DNA of 64,000 nucleotides from a virus. Shown here in pieces: positions 3,721-23,344 of the stretch. Each line of letters opens with the position of its first letter. The first letter of the stretch is position 1. Made by a program: the position numbers and the translations under genes. The notes under the pieces were generated by a model that was not told the origin of the DNA, did no database searches, and was given only the letters and a program-made list of their open reading frames with translations. The stretch covers positions 1-64,000 of the IMG/VR virus record IMGVR_UViG_3300019458_000191; one strand, written 5' to 3'.

Positions 3721-4917
3721 TTACAATTTTAATTTTCCCCAGCGTTTAATAGGAATTTGATATCCTGAATTGTTCTTATCCATATCGTTTTTATGGAAGA
3801 AAATATACAATAGAATCTGTGTCACTGTTAATACTATAGCAAATACCCAATAACTCCACGTCGGAGGTTCAATTGTAATATAATCAAATTTCTTCCAATC
3901 TTTGATTTGATAGTTTAAAACTACTTCGTCTTTTATTTTAGGTATAATACTACTATTAATAGGATGGTCAAACAATAGGCTTTCTAAATTTTTCTTAATT
4001 ATTGCCTTTTCTGTCCACCCAAACACATATACCCATTCTACATTTTCTCCGGCAGCAAAACATATTACCAAATCATTTTTCTTTCCACCAATCCATTTTG
4101 CTTCTTGCCACTTTCCATAATCCGATGGAGTTCCTGATGGAAATCCAACCATAATTAAATTAATTTTGTGTGCCGTACCCAACACAGCATTTAACTGGTC
4201 CCATTCAAGAACCGATATTTTTTGTCGTGCAGTTCCGAGTAATCTATCCGTTGTAAATAAATCTTTAGTTTCAGGCCATGAAAAAACAGAAATATTTGTT
4301 GGAACAATTCCGAATGAAAACAAAGACGGAGCAGCCTTTACACGATTTTCAAAACTAACAGTTTTCGAGACGGGTTCAATCCAATGATTTTTATTTACAG
4401 CAATATAATCATTCGGGTCACCAGCAATCATTCGAGAGTTATGTTCAGATGTGGTTCTATTACCACGAACAGGTTTCACTTCTCCAAACTTTTTACACAA
4501 ATATTGATATTTTTCACTGGAAATACTATAGCTTCCCAAAGTGGTATCCACGTTCCAATGTTCATTATGCCACCTAGACGTTGGTTCCCAATGGTCAAAA
4601 ACTTGAATAGTGTAAGAACAGTCGTAAGATTTTCCTTCGGAGTCTGTACAAGTTTGGTGAATGGTTTCGGTTCTATACACCGCATATTCGTAATATTCTT
4701 TCCATCTTGAATACTGTTTAGGTTCAACTACTTGACCACTCCAAGTTTCAATATCACGAGTCATTCCGGCCACAGACAAATATTGAAAAACTAATGCTGT
4801 AAGGAGAGAAACAACAACTCCAATCAACCATTCCCACAAAACGATTCTTTTATTTAACACCCATAGAACCATTCCTATGAATATTGGTAGAAAAGAGAGA
4901 AGCCAGAATAACCACAT
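3721..4917 (-). CDS. membrane protein with two N-terminal TMs, a large extracytoplasmic domain and a C-terminal TM
   Basis: Hydrophobic segments at about aa 1-50 and 355-375; W-rich core (QEAKWIGGKKNDLVIC). Confidence 0.75.
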   Translation of the reverse strand: MWLFWLLSFLPIFIGMVLWVLNKRIVLWEWLIGVVVSLLTALVFQYLSVAGMTRDIETWSGQVVEPKQYSRWKEYYEYAVYRTETIHQTCTDSEGKSYDCSYTIQVFDHWEPTSRWHNEHWNVDTTLGSYSISSEKYQYLCKKFGEVKPVRGNRTTSEHNSRMIAGDPNDYIAVNKNHWIEPVSKTVSFENRVKAAPSLFSFGIVPTNISVFSWPETKDLFTTDRLLGTARQKISVLEWDQLNAVLGTAHKINLIMVGFPSGTPSDYGKWQEAKWIGGKKNDLVICFAAGENVEWVYVFGWTEKAIIKKNLESLLFDHPINSSIIPKIKDEVVLNYQIKDWKKFDYITIEPPTWSYWVFAIVLTVTQILLYIFFHKNDMDKNNSGYQIPIKRWGKLKL

Positions 4918-14741: not shown

Positions 14742-15219
14742 GGTGAGTAATCACAAATTTCTGTAATTGAAGGAAAATCGACGTTACAATACCAACCAGT
14801 GTGGTATAGAATGCAGTCGCCAAACCAGCACGAAGAGAGATGATGACTTGTTCTGGATTTGGAGCTTGTCCACCAAGAGAGTTATACATCATAATACAGA
14901 AACCGATGATCGTTCCCAATAAACCCAACACGAAGAAATTATCTGAAAATAAATCCAATAGAGCCAATCTCTTTGTAACCAATTCCTTTTTTAAGGATTT
15001 CAATCTATAAGCCAAATATCCAGCAACGGATGAACCCAACACATACAATATCATAAGAATCAAACAAATGTAAGATTGGTCGTTCTTAATGAATAATTCT
15101 ATCAATCCTCTATTGTATGCAATAAGTCCGCCAGCTATACTGGCAGCAAAAATAATGAACCATTGAATAAATAATTTGTGAGGATTGGATTTAAGAAGTT
15201 TTGTTTTTTCAGTTTTCAT
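14734..15219 (-). CDS. MotA/TolQ/ExbB proton-channel family protein
   Basis: LGLLGTIIGF and GLATAFYTTLVGI signature helices. Confidence 0.88.
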   Translation of the reverse strand: MKTEKTKLLKSNPHKLFIQWFIIFAASIAGGLIAYNRGLIELFIKNDQSYICLILMILYVLGSSVAGYLAYRLKSLKKELVTKRLALLDLFSDNFFVLGLLGTIIGFCIMMYNSLGGQAPNPEQVIISLRAGLATAFYTTLVGIVTSIFLQLQKFVITHHE

Positions 15220-15269
15220 TTAATGTTAATGTAATTCGATATTGGTGAACGTCAAAATATAAGAAACGA

Positions 15270-15458
15270 TTACTCGTTCCAATCATATTCGCTTCTAAGA
15301 TACTCACTAACAATGGATGGTAAATATTTTTGTTTTAACTCGTCAACAATAGAACGTAAATTTTCCAAAGCGTCGGATAGTAACATTCCATCATCTACGT
15401 TATGAGATTGAACAGTCATCATTGCGTCATGTAAACGCATTTTATCAAGCGAATTCAT
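15270..15458 (-). CDS. small hypothetical protein
   Basis: ORF. Confidence 0.5.
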   Translation of the reverse strand: MNSLDKMRLHDAMMTVQSHNVDDGMLLSDALENLRSIVDELKQKYLPSIVSEYLRSEYDWNE

Positions 15459-15512
15459 AATTTTATTTTAATTTTATTTTCATTCCAAAACGATTTAGCG
15501 GCATTACTGTAT

Positions 15513-15764
15513 TCAGTATTCAGTATCACACACATTACAAACACAGAGCCTCAATTTGTTTGGATTATCAATTTCTATTGGTAAAAACATACTATTTGGA
15601 ATGCCTATAGAATCTATCCACGATATACTTGATTCGTTAATTGTAACAAAACAATATATTTGTCTTGGTCTTTTATCTTTCCTACAAAATACACAAATAC
15701 CTAAACATTCTTCATCTGGTGTATTAAAAAATACATCAAAATTATCTTTGATTTCTCGACTCAT
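15513..15764 (-). CDS. small zinc-finger-like protein
   Basis: CVFC...CNVC pairs. Confidence 0.55.
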   Translation of the reverse strand: MSREIKDNFDVFFNTPDEECLGICVFCRKDKRPRQIYCFVTINESSISWIDSIGIPNSMFLPIEIDNPNKLRLCVCNVCDTEY

Positions 15765-16027
15765 TTCTTTTTAATATCATTCATCGTTTCTTCTATTTCA
15801 ATTTTAGAATGTACGATTTTCGATGTAGTATCAAATAGGGACATCCCGAAAATTTTATCAAAAATACTCTTTTTATCGTATTCTCCGTTAGAGTCAGCAA
15901 ATCCTTGATTATAGGCTTTCTCTAATTCTTTTTCAAAAGATTGAGTCGATATGTTTATCTTTTTTGATTGAAATAAAGCCTTATTAGCTTTCTTAAGTCC
16001 ATGAATATAATTTCCAAAACTGTTCAT
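15761..16027 (-). CDS. hypothetical protein
   Basis: ORF with ATGA overlap to the next gene. Confidence 0.6.
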   Translation of the reverse strand: MNSFGNYIHGLKKANKALFQSKKINISTQSFEKELEKAYNQGFADSNGEYDKKSIFDKIFGMSLFDTTSKIVHSKIEIEETMNDIKKK

Positions 16028-16186
16028 ACTCGTGTTTGGGTTAAAAGTGGTTGGATTATTTCAGAAATGTTATCTCATGTTAAAGATTGACATGACTTTA
16101 TATCCGTTATCATAAAGGACAATAAAAGAAATTCAATGGAAAGTCAAACTATAAAAATGATTTAGAATGAATTGTGAAGAAAATAT

Positions 16187-16755
16187 ACTTGTCCCCGATA
16201 ACATTTCATGATACCGGTTTCCTTGCTAAAGGGCGAACGATTTAGGAAATAAGTCTTAGCTGACTCGTATCCTTTTGTCGTCCCTCATAAGGACAAGTTC
16301 GACGGAACAAATACCGTCTGTTTTTCATTCGACTGACCGTGTGAGGCGTCACCCTCTATATCTACCCATCAGTTAGGCCGGGCCATAGTAGGCATCAGGT
16401 CGCTCTGCGTCCCGATTGGAGTTGACTTCTCCGACCATTTTTCCCCGAACGAAATTCTACAAATTATTAGTGGGAATGTATTGTAAGGTGATACATTCAA
16501 AATATGTCACACAGAATCCTGCCGGGTGCTTCCTCGCTCGTCCGAACACAGACCAACATATTCTACTTCCACCAAATACTGAAAAAAATGTTTGAAACGG
16601 TATCGGCCTTATTGCCATTGTAATCCGTTTCAAACATGTTGGGTATCCTATATTATTGAGTTTTCCACGGCTTTAGCAACGCATCCGATAGAATCGGAGA
16701 ACTACTCAATTTTTACGTTTTTGTTTTCTATTCCCATCGCCCTAACCGATGGAAC
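16187..16755 (-). ncRNA. cluster of unassigned structured RNA elements downstream of the atypical tRNA
   Basis: No ORF of 60 aa or more, raised GC, successive closed stems (16187-16298, 16324-16453, 16467-16576, 16588-16637, 16654-16710, 16731-16755). Confidence 0.6.
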
Positions 16756-16759
16756 AAAT

Positions 16760-16849
16760 TGGTAGTCCTGTAGCGAGTCGAACGCTATCCCGGCACTGAT
16801 CTAGTGCGAATGTTGTTATAAGCAACACGTCCCTCCAAGGGTCAGGACC
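16760..16849 (-). tRNA. atypical tRNA, anticodon UAU (nominally Ile), with long variable arm and minimal D-arm
   Basis: GGTCCTG/CAGGACT acceptor stem + A-CCA; anticodon loop CTTATAA; T-arm TAGCG-TTCGACT-CGCTA; V-arm GCACT-AGATC-AGTGC. Confidence 0.8.
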
Positions 16850-16862
16850 ATTTTAAATCAAT

Positions 16863-16923
16863 TTAATCGGTCAAAATATCCCGTCGCCAGTCCCACAAAA
16901 TATAAGGCGATAAGACCGATTAA
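16863..16923 (-). ncRNA. structured element upstream of the atypical tRNA
   Basis: TTAATCGGTC...GACCGATTAA outer stem enclosing TCGCC/GGCGA. Confidence 0.45.
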
Positions 16924-16950
16924 TGGAATAATTAAAATTACTGTCATAAA

Positions 16951-17136
16951 TTATCTTCTATTCAAATTTCGACTTCGTTTTAACGGAAGCCAACGATTTG
17001 CAAATTCTTCATTATTCATTAACTTATGTTTAAAGTAATCAAAGTTGCCTGCCATTGGCTGACAATTATCAACATACCTTTCGTATGCTGTATTTAATTC
17101 TTTATCAGAATACTCGATAATTCTAGTTAATTTCAT
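16951..17136 (-). CDS. small hypothetical protein
   Basis: 61-aa ORF downstream of a promoter. Confidence 0.55.
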   Translation of the reverse strand: MKLTRIIEYSDKELNTAYERYVDNCQPMAGNFDYFKHKLMNNEEFANRWLPLKRSRNLNRR

Positions 17137-17234
17137 AAATCATAATGGACTTGGTTGCCTTACTCTTCTTTGGATTGGGGTCTTATACCGTCATCTAATC
17201 GTTCCGCCCATTAGAGAACGTTCATCTGTAAATA

Positions 17235-17262
17235 AGTATAACAGACTTTTAAGTATTGTCAA
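17235..17262 (-). promoter_or_regulatory. sigma70-type promoter for the small ORF / tRNA / ncRNA cluster
   Basis: TTGACA-16 nt-TATACT with extended -10 TG. Confidence 0.7.
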
Positions 17263-17321
17263 GAAACAATTACAATTACAACAGGGGTGCTAGGCGTGGA
17301 TGGTGGTTCAGTTGGTGGCAT
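17259..17321 (-). CDS. 20-aa micropeptide MPPTEPPSTPSTPVVIVIVS
   Basis: Manual translation; closely matches the C-terminal 14 aa of the upstream Fn3 protein. Confidence 0.55.
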   Translation of the reverse strand: MPPTEPPSTPSTPVVIVIVS

Positions 17322-17342
17322 AGGTATTTATATAAAATTAAG

Positions 17343-17375
17343 AAAACACCCCCGCTTTTAACAGGGGTGTTTTTT
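17343..17375. terminator. intrinsic terminator-like hairpin
   Basis: AAAACACCCC...GGGGTGTTTT(TT). Confidence 0.7.
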
Positions 17376-17393
17376 GGTTTAATGTATTGTCAA

Positions 17394-17678
17394 TTAGGAA
17401 ACAATGACTGTAACAGATGGGGTTTCAGGAGCCGAAGGAAGACCGGGGGTACTTCCAACTCCAGAGAAACCGCTGTTGCCAGCCAAATTTTGAGCCAACA
17501 CTTTGTAAGCATAAATGCCGGGAAGTGGATTCAAAATGTCATAGCTTGGTGATGGCGAAGCCAATACCGTAGCTTTGAAGGTGAAACTTGCACCATTTAC
17601 TGATTCCCATAATTGATAACTAGTTACTTGTTCAGATGGGTTATTTGCTGCCCAAGTGATGTGTATAGTTGTTGCCAT
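17394..17678 (-). CDS. stand-alone fibronectin type III domain protein, apparently circularly permuted
   Basis: ITW, VTSYQL, LPGIYAYKVLAQNLAGNS Fn3 signature; C-terminal PSAPETPSVTVIVS. Confidence 0.8.
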   Translation of the reverse strand: MATTIHITWAANNPSEQVTSYQLWESVNGASFTFKATVLASPSPSYDILNPLPGIYAYKVLAQNLAGNSGFSGVGSTPGLPSAPETPSVTVIVS

Positions 17679-17804
17679 AATTAATCCTTTTTGTTAATTC
17701 GTATCCGTCATTGGATACAATAATAAATAGATATAATATTAACATTTATTGTATTTTTATAAAAATAAATTTACTTGATGGCGAGGGGTTTATGAAAAAT
17801 GAAA

Positions 17805-17879
<75 letters not shown>

Positions 17880-17948
17880 GTAATATTCAATGGTTTCGGT
17901 TCCTAGTCACTCAATTAAGGTAAGCTACAGTCTTACCACCATCAAAAT

Positions 17949-18022
17949 TGGAGCAGGTAACTGGAATCGAACCAGCACTTCAGCATTGGCAATGCCGTGG
18001 GCTACCACTACACCATACCTGC
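17949..18022 (-). tRNA. tRNA-Gly(GCC)
   Basis: GCAGGTA...loop TTGCCAA...GGTTCGATTCC...TACCTGCTCCA. Confidence 0.96.
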
Positions 18023-18328
18023 AATCTGATAAGTTCGGATGCCTCTTATTTGGGATTTTCTTACACCGATATCGGATACTAATGTATCACAGTTGACTTA
18101 TCAAAAACTTTAAAATTCTACTTCGGCCGAAAGACAACCACCAATCGGAATTCCGCCGATAGTGATTTTAGCCATTTCCTTTATTGAGAAACAGCCGCCG
18201 ATTTTTACAAATCGACCTTCTTTGGCTACATTTTCGCCTTTAATCATGGTAATACATATACCACCAAAAATAAAAAATGTCAAGCATTTATTGGTTTTTA
18301 TAAAAACATTGACAAATTCACAAAGTCT

Positions 18329-18712
18329 ATGTACCTTATGGTAACAATGAAAACTTACTACGCAGAAAGAACACAAAGTTGTGGCGAGGAAAATGTTTGG
18401 ATTTCTGAAAATGGTGTTGACCGATTGCTTCCGGTTGAACCAAGTATAAAGGTTATTCATCACGCACCAGGATTTCAATGGGGTTATGCCGGTTCAGGCC
18501 CCTCCCAATTAGCTTTAGCAATTCTTTTAGATTTTACTAAAGGTAACATTCAAATGTCTAAAGATTTTTATCAACGTTTCAAGTTTGAGTTCGTTGCAAA
18601 ATGGCAAGATTCATGGAGTATTACAGAGAATGAAATACACGCATGGATAAAAGAAAATTTTGACAACATTCTTGATAAAAAAGATGAAGATAAAAAGAAA
18701 TTTGGAATGTAA
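18329..18712 (+). CDS. DUF6166-like protein (likely start 18347)
   Basis: HHAPGFQWGYAGSGPSQLALAILLD...YQRFKFEFVA. Confidence 0.75.
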   Translation: MYLMVTMKTYYAERTQSCGEENVWISENGVDRLLPVEPSIKVIHHAPGFQWGYAGSGPSQLALAILLDFTKGNIQMSKDFYQRFKFEFVAKWQDSWSITENEIHAWIKENFDNILDKKDEDKKKFGM

Positions 18713-20898: not shown

Positions 20899-22410
20899 AT
20901 GAAAAAGAACACGAAAATCAAAAAGTCTCAAGTCTCTCCTGCGGTTGGTAATGCCCTTGTTGCCGGATTAGCCAAAGTTAGTAACACTACTCTAACAGAG
21001 AATGGTGCATTAACTAATAAGAGTACTCTTTCTCATACGTTGGATTTCTTCGGTCAAGGTGGAGCACTTCGCACCCGCGAAGAATCTGATATTAATTCCC
21101 TATTTTCTAAAGCATTTGCTGAAAACCGTCTTGCAGCAATGAAGACTTTGTTTTATTTGCGTGATGTCCGTGGTGGACAAGGTGAACGCAAAACTTTTCG
21201 CACAATCCTTCGTTGGCTCGCAGTCAATCAACCAGAAGTTCTTCGTAAGAACTTGGAAAATGTTTCATTTTTTGGTCGTTGGGATGATTTGTATTCTCTC
21301 GTTGGAACACCCTTAGAAAATGAGATTTTCAAAATCATTGCTCTACAGTTAACGAATGATATGGTTGCAATGAAGAAAGAAGAATCGGTTTCATTGTTAG
21401 CAAAATGGTTGAAGAGTGAAAACACTTCTTCCAAGGAATCGTGCCGCCTTGGCCGTTTGACTCGTGAACGACTCGGTTTTTCTCCAAAGAAATACCGAAA
21501 GACTCTTTCTGCTCTCCGACGTTATATCAACGTCGTTGAAGTTAGTATGTGTGCAAATCAATGGGACAACATTGATTTTAGTAAGGTTACTTCCAAAGCA
21601 GCATTAACTTATAAGAAAGCGTTTGGTAAACACAATCCAACCGGCTTTGAAAATTTCTTGAAGAAAGTCGAATCAGGAGAAGTCAAGATTAATGCAGGTG
21701 CATTATATCCTTATGAAATTCTTCGTTCGATCATTCATGAAAATGATAATATGTCTCTTCGTAGCTTAGACCTTCAATGGAAGTCAATGCCTAATTGGGT
21801 GGGAGATGAAGATAATTACTTTATGGTTATTGCGGATACGAGTGGCTCTATGGCTGGATTACCTATATTAGTTTCTGTATCTTTAGCTTTATATCTTTCC
21901 GAAAGAAATGTTGGTCCTTTTAAAGATTGTTGGATTAATTTTAGTAATAATCCAACATTTCAAAAAGTTATTGGAAATACTTTGAAAGAAAAATGGGAAA
22001 ATATTGACAAAGAAAATTGGGATGGAAGCACAAATCTGATTTCTGCTTTTGAATTGATTTTATCTACGGCCAAAAAATTTAATGTTTTACAAAAAGATTT
22101 ACCTAAAAATTTAATAATAATTTCGGATATGGAGTTTAATATTGCTTCCGATAGTAATGATAAAACAAATTTTGAAATGATTGAAGAAAAATATAAAGAA
22201 AATGGATACATCATACCAAAGTTAATATGGTGGAATGTAAATTCAAGAAATGATAATTGTCCTATTACCAAAGATGATAACGGAACGTGTTTAGTTAGTG
22301 GATGTTCTCCGTCTATATTCAAATCAGTATTGAGTGGAAAAGAATTTAATCCTGTCGATGTTATGTTAGAAATAATCAATAAAGAAAGATATGATAGAGT
22401 TATGATTTAA
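20899..22410 (+). CDS. DUF2828 family TROVE/Ro60-like protein with C-terminal vWA domain
   Basis: TLTENGA, LRDVRGGQGERKTF, GRWDDL, LLAKWL, DTSGSM (MIDAS), IISDMEF, IWWNV. Confidence 0.88.
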   Translation: MKKNTKIKKSQVSPAVGNALVAGLAKVSNTTLTENGALTNKSTLSHTLDFFGQGGALRTREESDINSLFSKAFAENRLAAMKTLFYLRDVRGGQGERKTFRTILRWLAVNQPEVLRKNLENVSFFGRWDDLYSLVGTPLENEIFKIIALQLTNDMVAMKKEESVSLLAKWLKSENTSSKESCRLGRLTRERLGFSPKKYRKTLSALRRYINVVEVSMCANQWDNIDFSKVTSKAALTYKKAFGKHNPTGFENFLKKVESGEVKINAGALYPYEILRSIIHENDNMSLRSLDLQWKSMPNWVGDEDNYFMVIADTSGSMAGLPILVSVSLALYLSERNVGPFKDCWINFSNNPTFQKVIGNTLKEKWENIDKENWDGSTNLISAFELILSTAKKFNVLQKDLPKNLIIISDMEFNIASDSNDKTNFEMIEEKYKENGYIIPKLIWWNVNSRNDNCPITKDDNGTCLVSGCSPSIFKSVLSGKEFNPVDVMLEIINKERYDRVMI

Positions 22411-23344
22411 TGAAACTATTAAATCCTTTTACTGCTTCTATTTCTGAATTAAATCTTTCGGATATAAATCTAACATTGTTTTTAGACTGATAATATCTCC
22501 ACATTTTTGTGTCTTTATCATACGAAATATTTTTATGAATGGAAGATTTAATATGCAATTTCTTTTTAATTCTTTTATATATTTTGTATTTTCTTTTCAT
22601 TATTAAGTTTGTAGGATTAGAGTATAACCATTCCATTACTTTTACTATTTGATTCCTACCTCTAATATAAAGATTGTATATAGAACCAATTGGTTGAATA
22701 TTTGGTTTTATATCTGTTTCTTTGGTTATTATTTCCGATATTTTATTACATACATCATGTGTTCCGCATATAGAGAATCCGGGTTGTTGTCTTTTACTAT
22801 TTGTTATAAAAATAGACCCGTCTCCCTCAAAATATCCTAGTATAAAATATTTTAACAAATTCTTTTTTAAAAAATCAGGAAAAATTAATGTTAATGACTT
22901 TTTTTGTGGACATTTACACTTTTCTAATCCATCCTTTATTTTTTTATTAGATATAACTAAACTTACATATTTATTATTTATAAATTTTATTGGATGAGAA
23001 GATTTTAATTCTTTTTTTATTTTTCTTAAATAATTTTCATCTTTTTTTGATATTGTTATTCCCAATCCTCTACCAGTATTATAACCATCTGCATAAATAA
23101 ATCCTAGTATTTGTGATTTAATCGGAGAATCCATACAATCAAAAAAAGTTTCATCGATTTTATATTTTTGTTGACATTCACTAAATGTTCGCATTTTAAT
23201 GTTTTCTTTTTTTAAAACTCTCCATGTTCCACTAGCAGTAATATTGTAATCCCTTGCGATTTCTACGGTATTTTTTCCTGATTTATATTTAGTTACAATA
23301 TCAATTTTATCTTTTTCAGTTAATTTTCTCATATAAATTTTCAA
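22400..23344 (-). mobile_element. free-standing LAGLIDADG homing endonuclease (HTH + two LAGLIDADG motifs + AP2-like tail)
   Basis: ILGFIYADG and FILGYFEGDGSI; very AT-rich; C-terminal ISYDKDTKMWR...FNSEIEAV. Confidence 0.88.

What the first reader, a model, noticed from the sequence alone, without database searches (positions are those of the whole stretch)
16760..16849. Non-canonical 90-nt tRNA with UAU anticodon, long V-arm and shrunken D-arm
Seen: 7-bp acceptor stem with A73 and encoded CCA, a single nucleotide (A, no U8) before a CCCT-TGG-AGGG D hairpin, loop CUUAUAA, a class-II-sized variable arm and a normal T-arm. Established: most bacteria read AUA with lysidine-modified tRNA-Ile(CAU) and avoid UAU; long V-arms mark Ser/Leu/Tyr/Sec tRNAs, and A73 is used by both IleRS and LeuRS. 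Inference: a TilS-independent AUA decoder for an AUA-rich phage, a mischarged tRNA, or a tRNA-mimic decoy for anticodon nucleases.
Basis: partly seen in the sequence, partly recalled or inferred. Interest (0 to 1): 0.7.

Follow-up and report, generated by a model that had tools for sequence, protein, structure and literature searches.

The report
Phage AUA tRNA with second GAU arm
This phage gene is a real, oddly built transfer RNA that most likely reads the isoleucine codon AUA, and its "long variable arm" is a conserved second anticodon-like hairpin showing GAU, the ordinary isoleucine anticodon, which may be how the charging enzyme accepts it.

Summary
Rfam's tRNA model misses it.

It is not a chance fold. 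A covariance model built without the window finds it at 74.1 bits, E 1.1e-17. In 45 distinct relatives all five helices covary: 95.4% of cells paired against 65.1% when shuffled, and 23 of 27 pairs show compensatory changes.

The family is widespread:
- It sits mostly inside large tRNA arrays of uncultured phages.
- It occurs in Synechococcus phage S-SRM01.
- It occurs in 38 bacterial genome contigs, 27 of them Acidobacteriota.

The anticodon UAU is invariant, in 109 of 109 tRNA-like hits of a pattern that left the anticodon arm open.

The extra arm is not a Leu/Ser/Tyr-type variable arm. It has anticodon-arm dimensions, and its loop Y-A-G-A-U-Y-R carries GAU in 44 of 45 distinct sequences.

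Best reading: an AUA decoder, probably charged with isoleucine. The use of the GAU arm as an IleRS handle is inferred, not shown.

Closest in print is allo-tRNA(UAU) of Mukai 2017. This scan reached the same reading before on other DNA.

The parts
16760..16849 (-). Whole tRNA(UAU) gene, 90 nt, CCA encoded
   Evidence: ARAGORN. Model R2, built without the window: 74.1 bits, E 1.1e-17, model positions 1-90.
16843..16849 (-). Acceptor stem, 5' strand GGUCCUG; pairs with 16764-16770 (CAGGACU); G1-U72 wobble
   Evidence: In the family all 7 acceptor pairs show compensatory changes and 100% of cells are paired.
16831..16842 (-). Single linker A (16842), then the small D hairpin CCCUUGGAGGG (16841-16831)
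   Evidence: 3 of the 4 D-stem pairs covary in the family. UUGG is kept in the 36 of 45 distinct sequences that have the small hairpin.
16810..16828 (-). Anticodon arm: 6-bp stem, loop CUUAUAA (16822-16816), anticodon UAU at 16820-16818
   Evidence: UAU in 109 of 109 tRNA-like hits of a pattern that leaves this arm unspecified.
16793..16807 (-). Extra arm GCACU-AGAUC-AGUGC; GAU at 16801-16799, in the middle of a 7-nt loop UAGAUCA if the U-A pair is counted as positions 32 and 38
   Evidence: Family loop: G 45 of 45, A 45 of 45, U 44 of 45. Arm dimensions. Arm composition.
16788..16792 (-). Five unpaired nt (CGGGA) between the extra arm and the T-stem, the length of a class-I variable loop
   Evidence: 5-6 unpaired nt here in 75 of 89 distinct family members.
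16771..16787 (-). T-arm UAGCG-UUCGACU-CGCUA
   Evidence: 4 of the 5 T-stem pairs covary.
16760..16770 (-). Acceptor stem 3' strand (16770-16764), discriminator A73 (16763), CCA (16762-16760)
   Evidence: Discriminator A in 42 of 44 and CCA in 41 of 44 distinct family sequences that reach this end.
17235..17262 (-). Promoter-like site TTGACA-16-TATACT with TG, 11 of 12 matches, upstream of a 61-aa ORF (16951-17136) and the tRNA. A consensus match only.
16582..16639 (-). Long hairpin followed by a run of seven U, about 120 nt downstream of the tRNA: terminator-like. Seen in the fold only.

Best explanation
This is a working phage gene for a non-standard tRNA that reads the isoleucine codon AUA with an unmodified-type UAU anticodon, so it does not need lysidine synthetase (TilS). 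It belongs to a widespread family carried by phages and bacterial tRNA arrays. In this family a hairpin with the size and sequence of a tRNA-Ile(GAU) anticodon arm sits between the decoding arm and the T-arm: a 4-5 bp stem with C-G at the equivalents of 29-41 and 31-39, and a 7-nt loop Y-A-G-A-U-Y-R. Five or so unpaired nucleotides follow it, as a class-I variable loop would. In this hairpin the residues flanking the triplet are A and U, where a decoding loop has U33 and A37. It therefore cannot itself decode or carry t6A. Most likely the tRNA is charged with isoleucine. The GAU hairpin would then supply the G34-A35-U36 signal that ordinary bacterial IleRS requires and that a UAU anticodon lacks. 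The very small D hairpin of this copy is a variant found in many phage members; bacterial members keep a normal D-arm. Shown here: gene, fold, family, covariation, invariance of UAU and GAU, arm geometry, array context. Inferred: expression, decoding of AUA, isoleucine identity, and use of the GAU arm by IleRS. My separate odds: real functional AUA-reading tRNA about 0.85; charged with Ile about 0.6; GAU arm is the IleRS handle about 0.35.
For: Gene and fold. Independent model hit at 74.1 bits, E 1.1e-17.

Covariation in 79 hits, 45 distinct: 95.4% of cells paired against 65.1 +/- 0.9 when shuffled, and at most 46.3% when partners are slid. 23 of 27 pairs have changes on both sides, and every helix covaries.

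A pattern fixing the D-loop, the UAU loop and the T-loop found 109 viral loci. ARAGORN called 71 of them tRNA(tat) of 84-95 nt, and the model later confirmed 10 more at 50 bits or above. In these, G-A-U of the extra loop was never part of the pattern, yet G is kept in 45 of 45, A in 45 of 45 and U in 44 of 45. The reverse test fixed the extra loop and left the anticodon arm free. It gave 113 loci: 109 have a stem-closed YUUAUAN loop and 4 are non-tRNA chance hits.

The motif YAGATYR occurs in 65 of 72 long UAU tRNAs, against 0 of 26 Tyr, 0 of 51 Leu and 1 of 68 Ser in the same loci.

Arm geometry in 89 distinct members: 7-nt loop in 77, 5-bp stem in 48, 5-6 nt after the arm in 75. Leu, Ser and Tyr arms have 3-5 nt loops and 0-3 nt after them.

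Arm composition in 93 distinct members: C-G at the '29-41' equivalent in 90, and C at '31' with G at '39' in 89 and 90. The same C29-G41 pair is present in 47 of 66 tRNA-Ile(GAU) of these loci, but in only 208 of 1601 class-I tRNAs overall. C29-G41 is a listed E. coli IleRS determinant (PMC9976931, section 11, read).

E. coli IleRS prefers LAU over UAU 360-fold (PMC3575796, Table 1, seen in passages).

The family tRNA sits among 20-35 ordinary tRNAs in many arrays.

This phage uses ATA for 32% of Ile codons. A promoter-like and a terminator-like site bracket the gene.
Against: There is no evidence of expression, processing or charging.

The extra loop has U where t6A37 would be, and t6A37 is a strong determinant for bacterial-type IleRS (PMC9976931, section 11). 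In a normal L-shape a variable arm does not lie where IleRS binds the anticodon, so the idea needs an arm swap or a new binding mode.

The match of the triplet to the Ile anticodon was noticed after the fact; the chance is roughly 1 in 64 for one named triplet.

Six acidobacterial allo-tRNA(UAU) species converted to CUA did not rescue a Ser146 amber CAT reporter in E. coli, and two killed the cells (PMC5389517, section 16). That assay needed Ser or Ala, so it does not test Ile insertion.

With the extra arm removed, the family was not closest to tRNA-Ile(GAU) of the same arrays. Short Leu(UAG) and Leu(UAA) ranked nearest on average.

This phage record carries only three tRNAs, so the array argument is borrowed from relatives.

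One family sequence (L040 and L062) shows GAC instead of GAU.
Confidence: 0.6

Rival explanations
1. A leucine-charged missense tRNA, like the nematode nev-tRNA-Ile(UAU). LeuRS ignores the anticodon, so a Leu-type body with UAU would put Leu at AUA.
For: With the extra arm removed, short Leu(UAG) and Leu(UAA) tRNAs of the same arrays ranked nearest on average, mean ranks 4.2 and 5.1. That ranking is partly driven by the similar anticodon loops. A precedent exists: nev-tRNAs are charged with Leu in vitro (PMC3333845 and PMC4300185; search listing and start of abstracts only).
Against: The extra arm is unlike the Leu arms of the same loci. Leu arms have a 4-nt loop in 57 of 70 and 1-2 nt after the arm in 67 of 70. 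The family has a 7-nt loop in 77 of 89 and 5-6 nt after the arm in 75 of 89. The motif YAGATYR is absent from 51 of 51 long Leu tRNAs. Bacterial members have a 4-bp class-I-type D-stem. The tiny D-loop of this copy lacks most of the D-loop that LeuRS is said to read (recalled).
Confidence: 0.12
2. A tRNA-shaped RNA that is not used for decoding. It could be a decoy or substitute target for host anticodon nucleases, or a regulatory or toxin-antitoxin-linked RNA, as Mukai and others proposed for allo-tRNA(UAU).
For: Mukai 2017 found that six allo-tRNA(UAU)-derived suppressors were inactive and two were toxic in E. coli, and that such genes lie near toxin-antitoxin and transposon genes (PMC5389517, section 16, read). 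The acidobacterial relatives found here share the same anticodon loop and extra loop. This phage has only three tRNAs. Per an unchecked first-reader note (e1-6114791), it also has several RNA-repair-like genes.
Against: Features needed only for translation are kept throughout: U33 and A37 around UAU in 93 of 93; the T-loop UUCGA in 45 of 45, though that was part of the first pattern; A73 in 42 of 44; CCA in 41 of 44. The gene stands in line with complete sets of ordinary tRNAs. Mukai's reporter required Ser or Ala and an altered anticodon, so it says little about Ile-charged UAU forms.
Confidence: 0.15
3. A serine-charged (or other mischarged) allo-tRNA-type missense suppressor that puts Ser at AUA.
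For: A long extra arm is the main SerRS signal (PMC5389517, section 12, read). UAU is the most common allo-tRNA anticodon there.
Against: The discriminator is A in 42 of 44 distinct sequences, not G or U. The acceptor branch is 7/5, not 8/4: nucleotide 8 (A) would face an A. Arm geometry differs from the Ser tRNAs of the same loci, which have a 4-nt loop in 68 of 109 and 0-2 nt after the arm in 107 of 109. The later check quoted says part of that other claim fell.
Confidence: 0.05
4. A chance cloverleaf or a decaying pseudogene.
For: Rfam's tRNA model gives nothing. Fold energy z is only -1.74. There is no close relative of this phage, or of the 90-nt sequence itself, in the phage record collection.
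Against: Independent model hit at E 1.1e-17 over the full length. No broken pair in the window copy apart from one position in the extra-arm stem (alignment). Strong covariation in the family.
Confidence: 0.02

Closest known systems
allo-tRNA(UAU) of Acidobacteria (Mukai et al. 2017, NAR, PMC5389517; sections 12 part 1 and 16 read; supplementary figures not available)
   Same: UAU anticodon, a long extra arm, a small D stem-loop with a short linker, and possible five-stem junctions. 27 of the 38 bacterial contigs that carry the same anticodon loop and the same CAGAUUAG extra loop are Acidobacteriota, so these are very probably the same lineage.
   Different: The window copy has a 7/5 acceptor branch, not 8/4 or 9/3, and A73, not G73 or U73. 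It is in a phage. The main text of the paper treats the group as probably serine-type and probably not translational, and says nothing of a GAU loop. I could not see its Supplementary Figure S5.
Class-I tRNA-Ile(UAU), the TilS-independent AUA decoders such as Mycoplasma mobile tRNA-Ile2 (Taniguchi et al. 2013, PMC3575796; abstract and passages read)
   Same: UAU anticodon with U33 and A37, A73, and a presumed role of reading AUA without lysidine.
   Different: [quoted passage not shown] This family carries an extra GAU hairpin and must work with whatever IleRS its hosts have.
Nematode nev-tRNA-Ile(UAU) (Hamashima et al. 2012, PMC3333845; listing and start of abstract only)
   Same: UAU anticodon combined with a long extra arm.
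   Different: nev-tRNAs are eukaryotic, have a true class-II Leu-type arm and are charged with Leu. Here the arm has anticodon-arm dimensions and a GAU loop.
Anticodon-arm mimicry used to bind a synthetase, as in the thrS leader that binds ThrRS
   Same: A hairpin that copies a cognate anticodon arm in order to be bound by the synthetase.
   Different: That mimic is in an mRNA and serves regulation. Here the copy would sit inside a tRNA and serve charging. No case of this is known to me.

Membership tests
Phage and array tRNA(UAU) family with a GAU extra arm (defined here) | Five-helix cloverleaf matching the family covariance model | tested here: met
   R2, built without the window: 74.1 bits, E 1.1e-17, positions 1-90 of 90.
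Phage and array tRNA(UAU) family with a GAU extra arm (defined here) | Anticodon UAU in a 7-nt loop with U33 and A37 | tested here: met
   Loop CUUAUAA. Family: 109 of 109.
Phage and array tRNA(UAU) family with a GAU extra arm (defined here) | Extra arm with loop Y-A-G-A-U-Y-R followed by about 5 unpaired nt | tested here: met
   UAGAUCA, then CGGGA. Family statistics.
Canonical tRNA as modelled by Rfam RF00005 | Score at or above the gathering threshold of 29 bits | tested here: not met
   No match at all, even at E <= 10. Relatives with a normal D-arm do pass: L006 51.0, L106 48.2, L077 46.5 and L079 40.6 bits. L041, L066, L021 and L051 were not listed.
Class II tRNA (bacterial Leu/Ser/Tyr type) | Variable arm with a short loop and 0-3 nt before the T-stem | tested here: not met
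   Family: 7-nt loop in 77 of 89 and 5-6 nt after the arm in 75 of 89. Leu, Ser and Tyr of the same loci: 3-5 nt loops; 3 of 200 have more than 3 nt after the arm.
allo-tRNA (Mukai 2017) | 8/4 or 9/3 acceptor/T branch | tested here: not met
   7 acceptor pairs plus 5 T pairs. An eighth pair would be A opposite A.
allo-tRNA (Mukai 2017) | Discriminator G73 or U73 (serine identity) | tested here: not met
   A73. A in 42 of 44 distinct family sequences.
allo-tRNA (Mukai 2017) | Long D-stem with a tetraloop and a long extra arm | tested here: inconclusive
   D hairpin of 4 bp with a 3-nt loop and a 1-nt linker. This is similar in style but shorter. The paper's figures were not available.
TilS-independent class-I tRNA-Ile(UAU) (M. 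mobile type) | Short variable loop, plus an IleRS adapted to U34 | tested here: not met
   The region between the anticodon stem and the T-stem is 22 nt. The host and its IleRS are unknown, so the second half is not testable.
Functional isoleucine tRNA | Aminoacylation with Ile and decoding of AUA | not testable with these tools
   No RNA run holds the stretch. No biochemical data.

The most novel reading that the evidence does not exclude
A two-headed tRNA. One arm (UAU) is presented to the ribosome to read AUA. A second, disabled copy of the tRNA-Ile(GAU) anticodon arm is presented to IleRS as the identity signal, possibly by swapping places with the decoding arm on a flexible five-way junction. 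This would let a mobile tRNA read AUA in any host without TilS and without an adapted IleRS. It would be the first tRNA whose decoding anticodon and synthetase-recognised anticodon are physically separate.
Probability: 0.35. Interest if true: 0.85.

Novelty: new variant of a known kind. Interest (0 to 1): 0.62.

Why it matters
Reading AUA is a classic weak point of the bacterial code. A UAU anticodon is poorly charged by ordinary IleRS and risks reading AUG, so nearly all bacteria use a lysidine-modified CAU tRNA instead.

A widespread mobile tRNA that keeps UAU invariant and always carries a copy of the GAU anticodon arm suggests a third solution. It would also uncouple what the synthetase reads from what the ribosome reads. 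That is of direct interest for tRNA identity rules, for phage takeover of translation, and for engineering orthogonal tRNAs.

On the practical side, Rfam's tRNA model misses the small-D-arm members, and the copy in the S-SRM01 RefSeq record is unannotated. Phage tRNA inventories therefore undercount this family.

Tried and rejected
**Exact and near-exact searches for this copy.**
- The first 39 nt as an exact pattern found nothing in viral contigs.
- D hairpin plus UAU loop found nothing.
- blastn of the 90 nt against phage records found no match.
- blastn of 4 kb around the gene found only tRNA-Gly matches.

**Relatives of the phage through its DUF2828/TROVE-like protein.** This gave three loci at 56% identity. 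ARAGORN found 0 tRNAs in them, and there was no match to the tRNA region in their records (best E 0.29). Synteny therefore gave nothing.

**Fold energy as evidence.** z = -1.74, which is not significant.

**A mis-spaced pattern, CAGATTAGN{13,17}GGTTCGAT.** It gave 27 loci, and ARAGORN called no tRNA at any of the hits. My spacing missed the family (it needs 12-13 nt), so this scan served only as an accidental control. Two hits (L126, L138) lie in tRNA arrays and remain unexplained.

**Origin of the body.** With the arm removed, the nearest class-I tRNA in 49 arrays was spread over 15 isoacceptors, and Ile(GAU) was never the closest. This is inconclusive, and I make no claim about the donor.

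**MAFFT alignment of all 38 sequences.** It misaligned the 5' ends, so RNAalifold saw only three helices. I replaced it with model-based alignment.

**Expression.** No RNA holder is listed for window 15200-18500. The two holders are DNA runs of cave metagenomes that may be the source.

**Literature.**
- long variable arm + UAU + phage + tRNA.
- allo-tRNA.
- nev-tRNA.
- tRNAIle / UAU / variable arm / bacteriophage.
- tRNA array / Acidithiobacillus / tRNAIle.
- Mycoplasma mobile / UAU anticodon / IleRS.
- Term look-ups in PMC8421152, PMC4758250 and PMC6933170.

None of these turned up a description of a GAU-bearing extra arm. Supplementary Figure S5 of PMC5389517 and the supplementary tRNA tables of the array papers may show these tRNAs.

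**Not used:** protein searches, structure prediction and complex prediction. None bears on an RNA question.

Full report
**What is there.**
The window is the first 64 kb of an 89,913-bp virus record with 34.4% G+C. The record encodes phage proteins such as RIIA, a helicase and a ligase.

ARAGORN finds three tRNA genes in the whole record, all on the minus strand. Two are ordinary tRNA-Gly genes at 17806-17879 and 17949-18022. The third is a 90-nt tRNA-Ile(tat) at 16760-16849.

- a 7-bp acceptor stem (G1-U72 at the top);
- one linker A;
- a tiny D hairpin, CCCU-UGG-AGGG;
- a 6-bp anticodon stem with loop CUUAUAA;
- a 15-nt extra hairpin, GCACU-AGAUC-AGUGC;
- five unpaired nucleotides;
- a regular T-arm, A73 and an encoded CCA.

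The minimum-free-energy fold is this cloverleaf. Its energy alone is unremarkable, with z = -1.74. Rfam's tRNA model does not see the gene at any threshold I tried.

**Is it more than chance?**
The phage has no close relative in the collections, and exact searches for this copy found nothing. Three distant relatives found through a neighbouring protein had no tRNA at all.

A looser pattern fixed only UUGGA of the D-loop, the loop CUUAUAA and GUUCGA of the T-loop. It matched 109 viral contigs.
- ARAGORN of the 109 a tRNA(tat) of 84-95 nt.
- Ten more were later confirmed by a covariance model at 50 bits or above: L040, L062, L063, L068, L070, L072, L080, L081, L092 and L095.
- About 25 are chance matches.

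I built a model from 15 sequences and collected 79 hits at E <= 1e-9, of which 45 are distinct. This threshold leaves out a few lower-scoring true members: L050, L077, L094 and L103.

On that alignment:
- 95.4% of cells form standard pairs, against 65.1 +/- 0.9% after shuffling and at most 46.3% when partners are slid.
- 23 of 27 pairs show changes on both sides.
- All five helices covary: acceptor 7 of 7 pairs, D 3 of 4, anticodon 5 of 6, extra arm 4 of 5, T 4 of 5.

The alignment was fitted to the model, which favours the structure. The size of the effect, and the completely different acceptor sequences, leave no doubt all the same.

The window was in that first seed, so I built a second model from 17 relatives without it. 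That model finds the window gene over its full length at 74.1 bits, E 1.1e-17. The two tRNA-Gly genes score 27.0 and 23.6 bits.

**Where the family lives.**
In many loci the gene stands in line within arrays of 20-35 ordinary tRNA genes. These cover nearly all amino acids and often include tRNA-Ile(GAU) and several CAU tRNAs.

A member lies in the cultured freshwater cyanophage Synechococcus phage S-SRM01, at L114 4000-4089. The RefSeq record annotates nothing there.

A stricter pattern (CUUAUAA, CAGAUUAG, GUUCGA) run on one genome per prokaryote species gave 38 contigs.
- All 38 show the same layout, and ARAGORN of them.
- 27 are Acidobacteriota MAGs: Pyrinomonadaceae, Terriglobia, Bryobacterales, Blastocatellia and Ca. 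Angelobacter.
- The other 11 include an Acidithiobacillus chromosome (38 tRNAs within 8 kb), Roseovarius, Sulfitobacter, Aquiluna, Polynucleobacter, Prevotella and a Pseudobdellovibrionaceae MAG.
- Most are again inside tRNA arrays.

The bacterial members mostly have a normal D-arm. The small D hairpin of the window is shared with the main phage cluster. Members with a normal D-arm pass Rfam's tRNA threshold: L006 51.0, L106 48.2, L077 46.5 and L079 40.6 bits. L021 and L051 (small hairpin) were not listed, nor were L041 and L066, which do have a normal D-arm.

**Two invariants.**
When the search fixed the UAU loop, the middle of the extra-arm loop was free. It still reads G in 45 of 45, A in 45 of 45 and U in 44 of 45 distinct sequences, within Y-A-G-A-U-Y-R. 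The one exception, L040/L062, has GAC.

When the search instead fixed the extra loop (CAGAUUAG) and left the whole anticodon arm free, 113 contigs matched. Of these, 109 have a stem-closed loop YUUAUAN: 59 CUUAUAA, 30 CUUAUAC, 10 CUUAUAU and 10 UUUAUAA. The other four are not tRNAs. So UAU and GAU are each invariant when the other is used as bait.

The motif YAGATYR is present in 65 of 72 long UAU tRNAs. In the same loci it is present in 0 of 26 Tyr, 0 of 51 Leu and 1 of 68 Ser tRNAs.

**The extra arm is not a class-II variable arm.**

| tRNAs of these loci (distinct) | Arm loop | Unpaired nt before the T-stem |
|---|---|---|
| UAU family, 89 | 7 nt in 77 | 5-6 in 75 |
| Leu, 70 | 4 nt in 57 | 1-2 in 67 |
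| Ser, 109 | 4 nt in 68 | 0-2 in 107 |
| Tyr, 21 | 3-5 nt in 19 | 2-3 in 19 |

The family arm's stem is 5 bp in 48 and 4 bp in 26 of the 89 (which also gives the table figures). The family values are the dimensions of an anticodon arm followed by a class-I variable loop.

The composition fits too. If the arm is numbered like an anticodon arm, 93 distinct members have:
- C at '29' and G at '41' in 90 each;
- C at '31' in 89 and G at '39' in 90;
- C at '32' in 85 and A at '38' in 87;
- G-A-U at '34-36'.

The 66 distinct class-I tRNA-Ile(GAU) of the same loci have C29 in 47, G41 in 49 and G30 in 48. Only 208 of 1601 class-I tRNAs overall have C29-G41.

The two positions that differ systematically are '33' (A in 91 of 93, where decoding loops have U) and '37' (U in 88 of 93, where tRNA-Ile has A). 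The real decoding arm keeps U33 and A37 in 93 of 93, and mostly has G29-C41.

In the window copy the arm reads C-G, A-U and C-G at '29-31', and its loop is UAGAUCA.

**How it most likely works.**
The invariance of a perfect UAU anticodon loop, the T-loop, A73 and CCA, together with the place in arrays that otherwise hold one tRNA per codon box, point to a decoding tRNA for AUA. That is a codon this phage uses often: 605 of 1903 Ile codons, 23.3 per 1000 (crude ORF set covering 87% of the record). The phage's other tRNAs include Gly(UCC), which matches its commonest Gly codon, GGA (47%).

The charging step is the open question. E. coli IleRS prefers the lysidine anticodon over UAU by a factor of 360. 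The Trp that stacks on base 34 is conserved in species that have TilS (PMC3575796, abstract and passages). The anticodon, A73 and C29-G41 are listed IleRS determinants (PMC9976931, section 11).

A mobile UAU tRNA therefore has a charging problem in ordinary hosts. A hairpin that copies the tRNA-Ile(GAU) anticodon arm, including C29-G41, but is disabled for decoding, is what one would add to solve it. That is inference.

Against it:
- '37' is U, while t6A37 is a strong determinant.
- A variable arm does not normally lie where IleRS grips the anticodon. The idea therefore needs the two arms to exchange places on the five-way junction, or a new binding mode.
- The 5-nt spacer after the arm would allow such an exchange in topology, but nothing here tests it.

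**Rivals.**
- Leucine charging, as in nematode nev-tRNA-Ile(UAU), fits A73. It does not fit the arm geometry or the class-I-type D-stem of the bacterial members.
- Serine charging, as proposed for allo-tRNAs, does not fit A73 or the 7/5 branch.
- A non-decoding role (decoy, toxin-antitoxin-linked RNA) is what Mukai and others favoured for allo-tRNA(UAU), after six CUA-converted species failed in a reporter that needs Ser or Ala (PMC5389517, section 16). That test would not detect an Ile-charged tRNA, so the possibility stays open but is not favoured.
- A pseudogene or a chance fold is excluded.

**Context in the window.**
A promoter-like site (TTGACA-16-TATACT, 11 of 12 matches) lies at 17262-17235 on the same strand, upstream of a 61-aa ORF and the tRNA. 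A long hairpin followed by seven U lies at about 16639-16582. These are pattern matches only. No RNA data set holds the stretch; the two holders are cave-metagenome DNA runs.

**Comparison with what is known, and novelty.**
The closest described group is allo-tRNA(UAU) (PMC5389517). The acidobacterial sequences found here are very probably that group, and they share both loops with the phage genes. The window copy fails the defining allo-tRNA features (8/4 or 9/3 branch, G73 or U73).

I found no paper that mentions a GAU-bearing second arm, the phage and array distribution, or an isoleucine reading for it (searches; look-ups). Supplementary figures that could show it were closed.

Other agents of this scan reached the same reading on other genomes. 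I had written mine down, before I looked. I rate this as a new variant of a known kind. The window adds one more, rather divergent, member from a cave-metagenome phage that carries only three tRNAs.

Noticed in passing
L005-L113, e.g. L012, L013, L045: Many tRNA-Leu genes in these phage arrays are only 76-78 nt, which is class-I length with no long variable arm: for example Leu(caa) of 78 nt in 20 cases, Leu(tag) of 77 nt in 17 and Leu(taa) of 77 nt in 7.
   Followed up: no
L015, L029, L005, L050, L035, L016: Other long tRNAs with anticodons that are not class-II: Gln(ttg) 87 nt, Asn(gtt) 84 nt, Lys(ctt) 88 nt, Met(cat) 84 nt and Asp(atc) 87 nt. None has the YAGATYR loop.
   Followed up: partly
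L006:8017-8355 (-): A tmRNA gene (Rfam RF00023, 140.1 bits) lies directly next to the family tRNA(UAU) at L006 7918-8012 on a 20-kb viral contig.
   Followed up: no
L114 (NC_070963, S-SRM01) 4000-4733: ARAGORN finds three tRNA genes here: the UAU family member, Met(cat) and Leu(taa). They have no annotated feature in the RefSeq record.
   Followed up: partly
L126:10510-10542 and L138:5926-5954: Two hits of the mis-spaced CAGATTAG...GGTTCGAT pattern lie inside arrays of 29 and 31 tRNAs. ARAGORN does not call them tRNAs. They may be further odd tRNA-like genes.
   Followed up: no
window 20899-22410 (+): A 503-aa protein matches PHROG 850 ('RNA-binding protein', E 4.8e-145) and Pfam DUF2828 plus DUF7788. 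It is a TROVE/Ro60-like candidate about 4 kb from the tRNAs. No Y-RNA family of Rfam matched nearby.
   Followed up: partly
window 22400-23344 (-): An ORF with weak LAGLIDADG and CENP-B N-terminal DNA-binding matches, a likely homing endonuclease, sits next to the Ro60-like gene.
   Followed up: no
window 16570-16760 (-): The about 190 nt downstream of the tRNA fold into several hairpins (z = -2.34), ending in the terminator-like hairpin. They match no Rfam family.
   Followed up: partly
A4, acceptor pair 1-72: The first acceptor pair is G-U in 23 of 43 distinct family sequences, the window included. That is an unusually weak top pair for an elongator tRNA.
   Followed up: no
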